Assembly (NCBI RefSeq): GCF_009914755.1
Contig: NC_060934.1
Reading direction: 5' to 3' (one strand)
Origin: the human T2T-CHM13v2.0 reference genome, Homo sapiens
DNA length: 64,000 nucleotides
The notes under the pieces were generated by a model. It was not told the DNA's origin, did no database searches, and saw nothing but the letters and a program-made list of their open reading frames with translations. Made by a program: the position numbers and the translations under genes. Every line of letters begins with the position of its first letter. Positions within the stretch are counted from its first letter, which is position 1. This document shows positions 44,973-48,855 of this stretch, in pieces.

Positions 44973-45167
44973 CCCCCATTAGCATCTTGGGGGAATCAAA
45001 CCAAGAATCCACCAATCCTTAAGGGGCAAGTTCCTATCGATCTGCTCTACGGAGCATTAAGACCTCAATGACCCCAGACCTTGCTGCCATCCTCCTCTCA
45101 ACTCCTATGGCACATTTAATGAAATAATATAGAATTACTCCTAAGTGTTTCATCTCATGTTATTGTT
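44973..45167 (+). repeat. Donor arm of 195-bp long-range inverted repeat
   Basis: Reverse complement matches 48474-48668 at 187/195 positions with no gaps. Confidence 0.97.
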
Positions 45168-45339
45168 TCCTCATGGATGAGTTCTGACTCCCGTGTGAGG
45201 GACACCGGCTGTTCCCGCTCCTCCACATCTACTCAGCTCCTTCTGGTTAGTGTCCTGTGTCCCCACCTGGGGCACCGGCCCCTCTCGAATTCCCAGTCCA
45301 GCTCCAGAAGTGGGAGAGGGGAACTGTGCCTAAAAAAAA

Positions 45340-45985
45340 TAAGCACTTCCCATTCCCCTGGACACGACAACTGCTTCAGGGACAGACGTATGACCCAATT
45401 TGGGGTAAGGACAGTCAGGCCTAAGACTTTCATTCCACTGTTAAGGGAAGAGACACTGTCTTGCTGGACTCAGTGGTGAACACGGTAAGGCTGGAGCTGC
45501 TGAGACCATCTTGCTGCTACAAGGGTGCAAATAAAGGCACGGTGGTTCACACCTGTAATCCCGGCACTTTGGGAGGCTGAGGCGGGTGGATCACCTGAGG
45601 TCAGGAGTTTGAGGCCAACATGGTGAAACCCCATCTCTACTAAAAGTAAAAAATTTGCTGGGTGTGGTGGCGGGTACCTGTAATCCCAGCTATTCAGGAG
45701 GCTGAGGCAGAAGAATAGCTTGAACCTGGGAGGCGGAGGTTGCAGTGAGCCGAGATCGTGCCACTGCACTCCAGCCTGGGTGAGAAGAGCCAGACTCCAT
45801 CTCAAAAAAAAAAAAAAAGCAAAGAAAAAAGAAAGAGCCAGGCCATGGTAAACTATATGAGACTCTAGGTAGAACTACACCTGGATTTTTTTTATACTTG
45901 AAGTTCTCTTTCTGATCAAGTCAGTTTGAGTTATTTTATGTCACTTTCAAAACTGACTTTCAAAATAGAGTCCTAAATGATTCGC
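45340..45985 (+). mobile_element. Old MaLR LTR (MLT1K/L-like) split by an Alu
   Basis: tcccattcccctgg...cttcaggga...atgacccaatt..., ggagctgctg...ccatcttgc; 3' part caagtcagtttgagtt...tgtcacttt...gagtcctaa. Confidence 0.6.
45535..45835 (+). mobile_element. Alu (AluS-like)
   Basis: Dimeric Alu with poly-A tail. Confidence 0.96.
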
Positions 45986-48317
45986 CAGTTAGATTCTAAA
46001 CTCCCTGAGCTTGAGGAAGCCTCTTCCAGTTCCCAACAGGGCCAAGAGCAGTGTTCAGCATTTAATGTACACTTTGGCTCTAGGGCCATATTTTATTTTG
46101 CTTTATATCTGCCCCAACATCTAATACTGTGATTGATATATCAAACATCTGTGTCTTACTTTGTAGCACTCAGGCCACAATTGGAACAGAACATTCTCAG
46201 AAGCACCAACCGCCCCAGACAGCTGGTGGAGATAACTCTGTTGGCAACGCAGTACTTTTTCCTCCCTCTGCAATGGGATGCCTTCACCTCCAGACATCCA
46301 TGGGAGACAGCTGGGAATAACCCCAAAGCACTTAAGATAATGAATGACGTTTAGGAACAAAGCACCAGTCTTCCATCAGCCCTTATCAAAAGGTATTCCA
46401 TATTTCAAGGGACTAAAATTTGTCTTTTCAAGGAACTTCTTCAATTTTATTTTTGACTGTTGTGGGTCAGTAACAAGTCTTCCTAGAGCAATTTTGGATT
46501 TTTCTTTTCACCTGAAGGATCTTCAAAAGGATGCCTTTCAACTCCCTATTCCAAAGCAAAGACAGACGCACTGCTTTGACACGAAAAAAACAGGCTGAAA
46601 CCAATTTAGATTCTACAATGGTAAACCAAAGAGTCTTTAGCCTTGATATAAATGTCTTCTGAAAGAATATGCTTCACCAAATAAAACAAAGACTTGATGT
46701 CATAGCTTGAATTTTGGAAATGTGTCCTTATCCATGTGACTACTTGAAAAAGCAAGAAGTGTAGCTGGCCTGCCCACTTGAAAAACTGAAACCCATTTTG
46801 CCCAGGCATGGAATTAGAGACAGTAAATAAGAACACTGTTATTAAACATCCCATCAATTTTTAATATGGGTGCAATCGCTAAATTTCAAATCTAGTAGTT
46901 TTTTTTCTGGATATAAACTAATGCTATTGTGAAATCATTTTTTAGCTGGACGTAGAAAGTGGGACCTGTTTTTTTCAGGCTAGAAACCCTACTGAGATCA
47001 CTGCTACAGAAATATGTGGCGCCAGAAGTACAGACAGGAAGAGAAACGTGTAATTTTTTTCTAAGCAATCAGCTATGAATAAAATGCAAGAATACTTTAC
47101 TCACCCCACAGGGAAAATGTTTCTTAAAAACTTCCTTTGTTGATCTTCTCAGAATTAGTAGAATTTCAAGGTTTGCTCTACTTTGAATATGTGGCATCAA
47201 AATGTCACACCACAATACAAATCATTTTGGAAAAATACTATAGAAAATGTTAACAGTTAACAAAAGGAGACTAAAAGTGTTGAATGTGACATAAACTGAA
47301 ACGGAAGAAATACTTGGATAACAAGCAAGGTTATTACCGGAAAGAACTGAAATACTTTACAAAATAACACCATCTCTAATACTTGAGGTACATGTATTGG
47401 TGGAGAAAGGGACCACGGTATATTAATGTTTCATATAACTGTAAGAATCTGAGAACTTAAAATACTACCTGTTAAACTGATACAAATAAATTAAAAAGTA
47501 AAGCAGGAAGGATAATAGGCTTAAACTACCAAACATTCAAAATACAGGGAGACAGTGAATTCAAGAACTGCAATTAGAAGCTATTCTATACCTGCTTTTT
47601 TAAAAAATGTAAAGCTTCTTAGACTAGATCTTTACCAAATCTCTATTTCATCAATCCAGTGGGATCATATGGTTGCTGCGCAGCAAAAGATCCCATAAGA
47701 ATGAGAATGTGAACATCTCTCCAGCAGTTATCCTAAGCCCAGGAATGTCACAGGCATTTTACATACATGATCTCAAAAAGTCTGCAGAGCAATTCCATTG
47801 GTGGATATGAATTTTTGTCTCCATTTTATAGAAGAAAAAACTGAGTTTAGAAAAGTTACGTAACTCACCCGAGGTCACAAGGTCATATTCAATCCCATGA
47901 CTATCAGATGACAAAGCCTGGAGCTTTACACATCTTTCTGATAAGGGCTCCATAGGGTTCCTAAGCAAATCTCCAGGCCCCTTGGGGCAGCTCAAGGCTG
48001 CGGAATGTACCCCCACCAGAATCCAAGAAACTTGGGTCTGCCTTGGCTCCGAGGTTGGGACTAGTAATCTTGGTTTGTCAAACCACCACCCCTCTGGCCT
48101 CAGGTCCCTCTGCATAACATGAACAGGTTGGACTGAATGCACCCTGGTTCCTTCTGGCTAACACTTGGATTCCATAGGAAAAAGCTAGCTTTACCCAGTC
48201 TTCAGTCATTTTCTTTTTCTTTTCCTAGGCACATACCACTGAATATACTCATAACACGTCTTTATGGCCACAAAAGGATTCAAGCACCGTAAGGACTACA
48301 GACAAAAGGCTTTGATT

Positions 48318-48855
48318 TGGCTGGGTGCAGTGGCTCATGCCTGTAATCCCAACACTTTGGGAGGCCAAGGTGGGCGGATCACCTGAGCAGGGGTTTGAGA
48401 CCGGCGTAGCCAATATGGCAAAACCCCGTCTCTACTAAAAATACAAAAATTAGCTGGGCATGGTGCCTGTAATAACAATAACATGAGATGAAACACTTAG
48501 GAGTAATTCTATATTATTTCATTAAATGTGCCACAGGAGTTGAGAGGAGGACGGTAGCAAGGTCTGGGGTCATTGAGACATTAATGCTCCGTAGAGCAGA
48601 TCGATAGGAACTTGCCCCTTAAGGGTTGGTAGATTCTTGGTTTGATTCCCCCAAGATGCTAATGGGGGCAGGGCATGGTGGCAGGCGCCTGTAATCCCAG
48701 CTACTCGGGAGGCTGAGGCAGGAGAATCGCTTGAACCTGGAAGTGGAAGTTGCAGAGAGCCAAGATTGCACCACTGCACTCCAGCTTGGGCGACAGAACA
48801 AGATTCCAACCCTCCCACTCCGCGCCCCTCCTCCCACCCCCAACAACAAAAAAAA
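48318..48855 (+). mobile_element. Alu (AluS-like) containing a 195-bp non-Alu insert and a C-rich tail segment
   Basis: Left arm 48318-48473, insert 48474-48668, right arm 48669-~48808; imperfect TSD aaaaggctttgattt / aatagggtttgattt. Confidence 0.95.
48474..48668 (-). repeat. Inserted inverted copy of 44973-45167
   Basis: 187/195 identity to the reverse complement of 44973-45167. Confidence 0.97.

What the first reader, a model, noticed from the sequence alone, without database searches (positions are those of the whole stretch)
44973..48668. 195-bp unique sequence copied in inverted orientation into an Alu 3.3 kb away, creating a near-perfect long-range stem
Seen: 48474-48668 is the ungapped reverse complement of non-Alu sequence 44973-45167 (187/195 identical; 3 of the 8 mismatches are adjacent). 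It sits at the start of the Alu right arm, and Alu sequence (gggcatggtg...gcctgtaat) is repeated on both sides of the insert. One imperfect TSD pair encloses the whole Alu. Inference: this is a locally templated insertion (template switch or synthesis-dependent repair), not retrotransposition. The ~3-4% divergence between arms suggests it is younger than the Alu, roughly ape-lineage age. In a read-through transcript the arms could form ~195 bp of dsRNA, more perfect than typical inverted Alu pairs; on the minus strand 5 of the 8 mismatches become G-U wobbles. Such stems are known substrates for ADAR and can drive back-splicing or exon skipping. The pair could also seed an inversion of the 3.3-kb spacer.
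Basis: partly seen in the sequence, partly recalled or inferred. Interest (0 to 1): 0.8.

Follow-up and report, generated by a model that had tools for sequence, protein, structure and literature searches.

The report
Local inverted copy inside an Alu
A 195-base piece of unique intron sequence was copied backwards into an Alu element 3.3 kb away in the human PIP4K2A gene, leaving an unusually clean RNA-hairpin-forming repeat that is real but most likely a harmless scar of DNA repair.

Summary
Window 48474-48668 is the ungapped reverse complement of 44973-45167: 187 of 195 bases match and 3 of the 8 mismatches are adjacent. The match stops sharply at both ends.

It is not an interspersed repeat. 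In the whole 3.1-Gb assembly, the 195-mer and its 1,231-bp context each hit only these two places.

Copy B interrupts the start of the right arm of a + strand Alu. That Alu's own 12-nt target duplication (11/12) encloses everything. Alu target sequence is duplicated on both sides of the insert, 21 nt on the left and 28 nt on the right. There is no poly-A, no L1-endonuclease motif, and only 0-1 nt of junction microhomology.

The best reading is a post-Alu, locally templated insertion made by break repair or template switching. Its age is very roughly 13-21 Myr, with wide error.

In PIP4K2A-sense RNA the arms are predicted to pair over 191 positions (-362 kcal/mol). This far exceeds any Alu pair in the window, none of which passes 84%.

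Editing is plausible but untested. Back-splicing or exon skipping has no anatomical support, because the selected transcript has no exon in the window. This is a new example of a known kind and of modest interest.

The parts
44973..45167 (.). Arm A: the source copy, lying in unique intronic sequence that continues without a break on both sides
   Evidence: 187/195 to the reverse complement of arm B; the 1231-bp context 44300-45530 is single-copy in the genome except for positions 674-868, which hit arm B. No duplicated flank around arm A.
45168..48473 (.). 3306-nt spacer between the arms. It includes a + strand Alu at about 45533-45830 and the left part of the host Alu. The selected transcript has no annotated exon here
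   Evidence: the hub's gene table (no exon of NM_005028.5 in the window).
48307..48318 (+). Left copy of the host Alu's own target-site duplication
   Evidence: 11/12 identical to 48857-48868.
48319..48473 (+). Host Alu, left monomer, A-rich linker and first bases of the right monomer, up to the insertion point
   Evidence: aligns to positions 11-163 of the neighbouring Alu 49196-49501; sub-threshold 7SL/SRP match at 48320-48434; 78.6% identity to the Alu at 49196.
48453..48473 (+). Left copy of the duplicated Alu target (21 nt). It lacks 7 nt that the right copy and other Alus have
   Evidence: 20/21 identical to the right copy, with one 7-nt gap.
48474..48668 (.). Arm B: the inserted, inverted copy of arm A
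   Evidence: 316 bits, 96%, minus orientation. It is flanked on both sides by Alu sequence in one orientation.
48668..48695 (+). Right copy of the duplicated Alu target (28 nt). Its first base, G at 48668, can be assigned to either the insert or the Alu (1-nt junction overlap)
48669..48856 (+). Host Alu, rest of the right monomer, an odd C-rich 3' stretch and the A tail
   Evidence: aligns to positions 143-266 of Alu 49196. (SRP-like match 48668-48814)..
48857..48868 (+). Right copy of the host Alu's own target-site duplication
44973..48668 (-). Predicted long-range RNA stem-loop in PIP4K2A-sense pre-mRNA: a 195-nt stem closing a 3306-nt loop
   Evidence: cofold of -362.5 kcal/mol, 191 pairs (187 Watson-Crick plus 4 G-U), longest unbroken helix 81 bp; a shuffled partner gives -102 +/- 5; in the MFE of a 4096-nt stretch, all 191 pairs form in register.

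Best explanation
After an S-type Alu had retrotransposed into a large PIP4K2A intron, a break or stalled synthesis inside the start of its right monomer was repaired with a 195-nt stretch copied in reverse orientation. The template was unique sequence 3.3 kb away on the same chromosome. Repair then resumed in the Alu 21-28 nt behind the point where it had left, so Alu target sequence is duplicated on both sides of the insert.

Two routes could do this: synthesis-dependent repair with two template switches (SDSA/MMBIR-like, possibly returning on the sister chromatid), or fill-in of a staggered break followed by end-joining of a locally synthesised fragment.

The product is a single-copy-derived inverted repeat. 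In the minus-strand (gene-sense) pre-mRNA it should fold into a 195-bp, 96-98% paired stem closing a 3.3-kb intronic loop.

Most likely consequence: the stem forms in a fraction of nascent transcripts, is promiscuously A-to-I edited by nuclear ADARs, and is degraded with the intron. That makes it a neutral by-product and not a selected element.

Shown: the anatomy, the uniqueness, the order of events (Alu first, insert second) and the predicted pairing. Inferred: the repair pathway, the age, stem formation in vivo, editing and neutrality.
For: (1) The repeat is real and far beyond chance: 187/195 ungapped, with sharp ends.
(2) It occurs at only two places in the 3.1-Gb assembly, both for the 195-mer and for a 1231-bp context around arm A. 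It is therefore a local duplication and not a repeat family.
(3) Direction of copying: arm B is embedded in an Alu whose two halves align to consecutive, overlapping positions of a neighbouring Alu (left to position 163, right from position 143). The Alu's own 12-nt TSD encloses the whole structure. Arm A sits in continuous unique sequence.
(4) The insert is flanked by a 21/28-nt direct duplication of Alu target, 20/21 identical.
(5) The retrotransposition hallmarks named in PMC11702581 (passages) are mostly absent. There is no poly-A at either end of the insert and no T-rich/A-rich nick motif at either boundary of the duplicated target (read).
(6) At 45089 arm B keeps a CpG where arm A has CpA. 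This is the usual direction of decay and implies real post-duplication divergence.
(7) A crude relative age: the arms differ by 1.5-2.05% per branch, against about 4.6% non-CpG branch length for the host Alu.
(8) Folding: -362.5 kcal/mol, 191 pairs, retained in register in a 4096-nt MFE. The best competing inverted pairs in the window are Alu pairs of at most 84%. All Alu copies within 44000-49800 are in + orientation, so there is no local Alu partner.
Against: Junction microhomology is only 0 nt on the left and 1 nt on the right. This is less than is typical of MMBIR/FoSTeS and fits end-joining better, so the exact pathway is open.

In the four-point template-switch model the switch order here is 3-2-4-1, meaning the return lies behind the departure. 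Loytynoja & Goldman did not observe this class among short-range events and considered it to require re-opening new duplex (PMC5453318, passages).

The 7-nt gap in the left target copy is unexplained; it may have arisen with the event or later.

No orthologous primate sequence, population data, RNA editing data or duplex-mapping data could be reached. The age, fixation, in-vivo folding and editing are therefore untested.

Both dsRNA surveys I read used cut-offs (>300 bp) that this stem does not reach. PIP4K2A is absent from their supplements as held.
Confidence: 0.8

Rival explanations
1. RNA-mediated insertion. A fragment of PIP4K2A intronic RNA, or of an antisense transcript, was reverse-transcribed by L1 ORF2p or another RT at a nick or break in the Alu and fixed as cDNA. 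Alternatively, an ORF2p-made staggered break captured genomic DNA.
For: The insert is flanked by a target duplication, which is a hallmark of ORF2p staggered nicks (PMC11702581 passages). That preprint also reports templated genomic DNA insertions at ORF2p-induced breaks. The + strand of arm B equals the gene-sense (minus-strand) transcript of arm A, so the abundant pre-mRNA could have been the template.
Against: There is no poly-A at either end of the insert. No TTTT/AA-type motif lies at either boundary of the duplicated target. The 21/28-nt duplication is longer than the 12-18 bp mode quoted. No L1 or other retroelement sequence accompanies the insert. A source only 3.3 kb away is expected for DNA-level proximity but would be a coincidence for a diffusible RNA.
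Confidence: 0.1
2. The two arms are members of an interspersed repeat family, or both descend from a third copy, and happen to lie inverted 3.3 kb apart.
For: None found. NCBI masking in the hub's table is incomplete, so this had to be tested.
Against: The whole-genome search found 2 candidates and 2 matches, namely the arms themselves, at E<=10. This held both for the 195-mer and for the 1231-bp context. The tool warns that repeat counts are lower bounds, but a family young enough to give 96% identity would be found. Arm B has sharp ends exactly at Alu junctions with a target duplication.
Confidence: 0.01
3. Assembly artefact: a chimeric or mis-joined read placed an inverted piece inside the Alu.
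For: Only one assembly could be examined.
Against: The arms differ at 8 of 195 positions in a transition-rich pattern that includes a CpG decay. An artefactual copy would be identical. The insert has clean junctions with a diverged target duplication. The whole structure (3.7 kb) is shorter than the long reads used for such assemblies (general knowledge, not tested).
Confidence: 0.02
4. The stem is a selected functional RNA element of PIP4K2A, for example an ADAR-dependent regulator of intron processing or a source of small RNAs, and not a neutral scar.
For: It is the tightest inverted pair in the window. Five of 8 mismatches are G-U-compatible on the transcribed strand against 2 of 8 on the other, so the gene-sense RNA is slightly better paired (-362.5 against -358.4 kcal/mol).
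Against: The 5-against-2 asymmetry rests on 8 sites and is not significant. The arms have diverged at about the neutral expectation for their inferred age. No exon lies between or near the arms (hub's table). There is no Rfam family hit in either arm beyond Alu-derived matches. Near-perfect inverted duplicates are numerous in pre-mRNAs and, if anything, selected against (PMC7006430, Results).
Confidence: 0.07

Closest known systems
Short-range template-switch mutations (four-point model; Loytynoja & Goldman 2017, PMC5453318)
   Same: [quoted passage not shown] This creates a new inverted repeat able to form a hairpin. The event is described by four switch points (passages read).
   Different: Those events involve tens of bases within one fork, and the authors explicitly do not model long-range switches. 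Here 195 nt were copied from 3.3 kb away. The switch order here (3-2-4-1, with the return behind the departure, giving a flanking direct duplication) is the class they did not observe.
FoSTeS/MMBIR and SDSA-type templated insertions; dispersed or inverted duplications in structural-variant catalogues
   Same: An extra, non-tandem copy of local sequence is inserted in inverted orientation while the source is retained. There are no retroelement hallmarks.
   Different: The junctions here have 0-1 nt microhomology, where MMBIR typically shows a few nt (recalled). The size of 195 bp is at the small end of what SV catalogues record. The listings show that such mechanisms are in print, but I read none of those papers for this point.
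L1 ORF2p target-primed insertions (processed pseudogenes, templated sequence insertions)
   Same: The insert is flanked by a target-site duplication.
   Different: There is no poly-A and no endonuclease motif. The duplication is longer than the 12-18 bp mode, and the source is local and intronic.
Inverted Alu pairs as intronic dsRNA and ADAR substrates
   Same: Two inverted copies within one transcription unit, a few kb apart, are predicted to form a long intramolecular duplex.
   Different: The arms are single-copy sequence and not Alu. They are 96% complementary, against at most 84% for every Alu pair in this window. Each arm therefore has exactly one possible partner in the genome, whereas an Alu has many. 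At 195 bp the stem is below the >300 bp class that PMC7006430 and PMC11838218 single out as potential MDA5 ligands.

Membership tests
Interspersed repeat family | Many dispersed copies in the genome | tested here: not met
   only the two arms match in 3.1 Gb (2 candidates, 2 scored).
Short-range template-switch mutation (four-point model) | [quoted passage not shown] | tested here: met
Short-range template-switch mutation (four-point model) | Short range: tens of bases, within the same fork | tested here: not met
   195 nt copied over 3306 nt. The authors exclude long-range switches from the model.
Short-range template-switch mutation (four-point model) | Observed event types have switch point 1 before 4 | tested here: not met
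   The order here is 3-2-4-1, since the target is duplicated on both sides. Such orders were not observed by the authors.
MMBIR/FoSTeS templated insertion | Templated insert from a nearby locus with the source retained | tested here: met
MMBIR/FoSTeS templated insertion | Microhomology of a few nt at the switch junctions (feature recalled) | tested here: inconclusive
   0 nt at the left junction and 1 nt (G at 48668) at the right. Later substitutions at the junctions cannot be excluded.
L1 ORF2p-mediated (TPRT) insertion | Target-site duplication | tested here: met
   21/28-nt duplication, longer than the 12-18 bp mode.
L1 ORF2p-mediated (TPRT) insertion | Poly-A at the 3' end of the insert | tested here: not met
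   Neither end of 48474-48668 is A- or T-rich beyond 2-3 bases.
L1 ORF2p-mediated (TPRT) insertion | Endonuclease motif (3'-AA/TTTT-5') at the nick site | tested here: not met
   The boundaries of the duplicated target lie in G/C-rich Alu sequence. Motif as given.
Intramolecular dsRNA / ADAR substrate of the inverted-repeat type | Both arms lie in one transcript and form a long, stable predicted duplex | tested here: met
   The hub's table puts the whole window inside the PIP4K2A transcription unit. Folding.
Intramolecular dsRNA / ADAR substrate of the inverted-repeat type | Clustered A-to-I (A-to-G) sites observed in both arms | not testable with these tools
   No RNA-seq or editing database was available. 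Literature searches found nothing for this gene.
Back-splicing (circRNA)-promoting flanking inverted repeats | The arms lie in introns flanking one or more exons | tested here: not met
   The hub's table shows no exon of NM_005028.5 in the window, so the arms enclose only intron. The other 3 transcripts were not shown to me.
Segmental duplication | >=1 kb at >=90% identity (definition recalled) | tested here: not met
   195 nt, with no extension past either end.

The most novel reading that the evidence does not exclude
This may be a fossil of a repair route that is hardly documented in the germline. A broken or stalled 3' end copies an Okazaki-fragment-sized (195-nt) stretch from the opposite strand kilobases away. 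It then re-engages behind its departure point, probably on the sister chromatid, and so makes a 'TSD-flanked' inverted local copy without any transposon machinery. This switch order was not seen among short-range template switches. As a by-product it gave apes a single-partner, near-perfect 195-bp dsRNA in a highly expressed gene. That dsRNA would be an exceptionally clean natural ADAR hyper-editing substrate and could influence processing of the PIP4K2A intron.
Probability: 0.12. Interest if true: 0.5.

Novelty: new member of a known kind. Interest (0 to 1): 0.3.

Why it matters
The locus shows cleanly that long, near-perfect dsRNA-forming repeats in human introns can arise from unique sequence by local templated repair, and not only from pairs of transposable elements. 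It has a dated host (the Alu), intact junctions and a flanking duplication that constrain the mechanism. Because each arm has exactly one partner in the genome, it would be a convenient natural test case for three questions: how far apart two arms can lie and still pair co-transcriptionally, how ADARs treat a 96% stem compared with Alu pairs of about 80%, and whether such stems matter when introns are retained or lariats accumulate. I see no evidence that it affects PIP4K2A function.

Tried and rejected

(2) Rfam scan of 44000-49800 at E<=1. It gave only Alu-derived matches (SRP, mir-1268, mir-3135, mir-1285) and chance-level hits. One example is snoU105B at 47167-47238, 24.4 bits against a gathering score of 49. 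Nothing lies in either arm.

(3) Dating the host Alu against a majority consensus of 15 Alu copies from the window. I had dropped 2 partial copies, 4203-4345 and 39274-39467, from the 19 BLAST rows. I rejected this approach because the consensus came out as an older subfamily type than the host, which inflates the host's divergence (15-19%). I replaced it with a consensus-free star-branch estimate on 6 hand-picked similar copies plus the host. That estimate is still crude.

(4) Micro-inversion as an explanation for the three adjacent mismatches: the reverse complement of the arm A bases does not give the arm B bases (contexts). It remains an unexplained multi-nucleotide change.

(5) Gene-specific literature. 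'PIP4K2A' + 'A-to-I' returned 2 pharmacology guides (listing only). 'PIP4K2A' + 'inverted repeat' returned 0 papers. PIP4K2A and NM_005028 are absent from the supplements held for PMC7006430 (3 files).

(6) Searches for printed descriptions of TSD-flanked non-retroelement templated insertions gave only cancer or L1 papers. I read passages of one of them.

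Full report
**Observation**

The two stretches were read directly and compared by the repeat finder and by a base-by-base script.
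- Window 48474-48668 is the ungapped reverse complement of 44973-45167, with 187 of 195 positions matching.
- The 8 mismatches lie at 45010, 45016, 45061-45063 (adjacent), 45086, 45089 and 45107.
- The first base outside the match mismatches at both ends, and agreement beyond is at chance level.
- The perfect-identity tracts are 37, 5, 44, 22, 2, 17 and 60 nt.
- For random sequence, the expectation of such a match anywhere in 64 kb is about 2e-91.
- Within 44000-49800 it is the only inverted pair of 25 nt or more.
- Among the 20 inverted pairs of 100 nt or more in the whole window it is the only one above 84% complementarity. The rest are Alu pairs at 71-84% (for 30000-64000).

**Is it a repeat family?**

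No. The window's own assembly (3.1 Gb, 24 contigs) was searched with the 195-mer and with a 1,231-bp stretch around arm A (44300-45530). Each search found two candidates and two matches. These were the query's own place and arm B, at 96% in minus orientation and covering exactly query positions 674-868 of the longer query. The tool warns that counts for repeats are lower bounds, but a family young enough to give 96% identity would not be missed. Arm A is therefore single-copy sequence, and arm B is its only relative.

**Anatomy of the recipient site**

- Arm B lies inside a + strand Alu. The left part (48330-48473) aligns to positions 11-163 of the neighbouring Alu at 49196-49501. The part right of the insert (48678-48797) aligns to positions 143-266. 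The two halves therefore overlap in Alu coordinates.
- Direct comparison of the flanks shows 48453-48473 (21 nt) repeated at 48668-48695 (28 nt). They are 20/21 identical, and the left copy lacks 7 nt that the right copy and other Alus have.
- The insertion point is just after the A-rich linker, at the start of the right monomer.
- The whole Alu, insert included, is bracketed by its own 12-nt target duplication, 48307-48318 and 48857-48868, at 11/12. So the Alu arrived as one piece and was interrupted later.
- Sub-threshold 7SL/SRP matches on both halves, and 78.6% and 83.9% identity to the 49196 copy, agree with the Alu assignment. The subfamily call 'S-type' is my reading of the right-arm sequence from recall and is not a tool result.

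**Junctions**

At the left junction, Alu sequence ends at 48473 and source-derived sequence begins at 48474, with no shared base. At the right junction, the G at 48668 can be assigned to either partner, a 1-nt overlap. The next bases follow the Alu with one T/A difference. Neither end of the insert has a poly-A or poly-T run. Neither boundary of the duplicated target has a T-rich/A-rich nick motif. Those are the TPRT hallmarks listed in PMC11702581 (passages), together with TSDs of mostly 12-18 bp.

**Mechanism**

The facts to explain are these:
- the inverted orientation;
- a source only 3.3 kb away that is retained;
- sharp ends;
- a 21/28-nt flanking duplication of the target;
- no retroelement hallmarks;
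- almost no junction microhomology.

A locally templated insertion during DNA repair or replication explains all of them. I see two routes.

Route (a) is a 3' end that leaves the Alu, copies 195 nt from the opposite strand of nearby DNA, and re-engages 28 nt behind where it left. In the four-point notation of Loytynoja & Goldman the order is 3-2-4-1. Those authors did not model long-range switches. They did not observe any type with point 4 before point 1 among short events, and they argued that it would need re-opening of newly made duplex (PMC5453318, passages). Returning on a sister chromatid after a double-strand break avoids that objection.

Route (b) is a staggered break whose overhangs are filled in, giving the duplication, with a locally synthesised or excised 195-bp fragment joined in by end-joining. 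This fits the 0-1 nt microhomology better.

I cannot separate the two with the data at hand. An RNA or ORF2p route is kept as a minor rival. The target duplication and the report of templated genomic insertions at ORF2p breaks speak for it. The lack of poly-A and of a nick motif, and the very local source, speak against it.

**Age**

- Six events (counting the adjacent triplet once) to eight differences in 195 nt give Jukes-Cantor distances of 0.031-0.042. That corresponds to 13-21 Myr at 1.0-1.2e-9 per site per year per lineage, and about twice that at 0.5e-9. The rates are recalled values.
- With so few events the Poisson error is about 2.5-fold either way.
- At 45089 arm B retains a CpG where arm A has CpA. 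This is the common direction of decay, so at least part of the divergence arose after the duplication. Some differences, notably the triplet, could have been made by error-prone synthesis at birth, which makes the age an upper estimate.
- A crude consensus-free estimate puts the host Alu's non-CpG branch at about 4.6%, against 1.5-2.05% per branch for the arms. That estimate used 6 hand-picked similar copies plus the host, so the insertion is clearly younger than the Alu, as the structure already proves.
- An earlier attempt with a window-derived consensus was discarded because the consensus was of an older subfamily type.

**RNA consequences**

The hub's table places the whole window inside the PIP4K2A transcription unit (minus strand), with no exon of NM_005028.5 in it.

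| Measure | Minus (gene-sense) strand | Plus strand |
|---|---|---|
| Cofold energy | -362.5 kcal/mol | -358.4 kcal/mol |
| Pairs between arms | 191 (187 Watson-Crick + 4 G-U) | 189 |
| Longest unbroken helix | 81 bp | 60 bp |
| Mismatches that are G-U-compatible | 5 of 8 | 2 of 8 |
| Arm-arm pairs in register in a 4,096-nt MFE | 191 | 189 |

A shuffled partner gives -102 +/- 5 kcal/mol. All Alu copies within 44000-49800 are in + orientation, so the stem has no strong local competitor.

Formation in vivo, and A-to-I editing by nuclear ADARs, are plausible inferences from what is known of intronic inverted repeats, but they were not testable here. The other three transcripts of the gene were not shown to me.

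At 195 bp the stem is below the >300 bp and >96% class that both surveys treat as potential MDA5 ligands. Being deep in an intron, it would not normally reach the cytoplasm (PMC11838218 section 10; PMC7006430 Results).

**DNA-level consequences**

In this haplotype the spacer is not inverted, since Alu sequence in one orientation adjoins arm B on both sides. With a 3.3-kb spacer and a longest perfect tract of 60 bp, I judge recombination between the arms, or hairpin or cruciform formation, to be unlikely. That judgement rests on recalled knowledge.

**Context and novelty**

- Barak et al. counted very large numbers of inverted duplicated sequences in pre-mRNAs and found near-perfect ones depleted but far from absent (PMC7006430).
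- Andrews & Bass predicted 5.1 million dsRNAs, of which 31,017 were >96% paired. Non-repetitive ones were sparse, at about 2 per Mb, and the scan used 10-kb windows that would include this pair (PMC11838218). The stem may therefore already sit in that web resource, which I could not reach.
- I found no printed mention of this locus. 'PIP4K2A' with 'A-to-I' gave 2 irrelevant listings. 'PIP4K2A' with 'inverted repeat' gave 0 papers. The supplements held for the two surveys do not contain the gene, and one of those sets is clearly incomplete at 11 kb.
- Templated insertions, template switching and inverted dispersed duplications are known kinds (listings; passages).

**Verdict**

This is a real, well-preserved example of a known kind. 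Two features are mildly unusual: the flanking target duplication, with a return-behind-departure order, and the single-copy origin of a 96% stem. Its interest is modest.

Noticed in passing
window 48798-48856: The host Alu's 3' end is odd. Where neighbouring Alus run into the A tail, it has a C-rich stretch of about 45 nt (runs of CCC/CCCC with one CGCG) before a short, interrupted A tail.
   Followed up: no
window 53030-53294: An AT-rich minisatellite with a 14-nt unit of the ATATATATATACAT type (about 16 copies, 85% matches), followed by (AC)28. Its self-complementarity explains the 'palindrome' rows I21/I22. A weaker related array lies at 54762-54931.
   Followed up: partly
window 44000-49800: All four Alu-like copies here (about 44000-44086 partial, 45533-45830, 48319-48856, 49196-49501) are in + orientation, so this 5.8-kb stretch has no inverted Alu pair at all. 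The nearest minus-oriented copies are at 41138-41419 and 50383-50659.
   Followed up: partly
window 44875-44903: A small tandem duplication (14-nt unit, 2.1 copies, 93% matches) lies about 70 nt upstream of arm A. No link to the insertion event is evident.
   Followed up: no
window 47167-47238 (-): A sub-threshold Rfam match to the C/D-box snoRNA family snoU105B (24.4 bits against a gathering score of 49, E 0.069) lies inside the spacer, on the gene-sense strand. It is most likely chance.
   Followed up: no
window 45061-45063 / 48578-48580: Three adjacent bases differ between the arms. It is a multinucleotide change that is not a micro-inversion. It could be a footprint of low-fidelity repair synthesis or a later clustered mutation.
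   Followed up: partly
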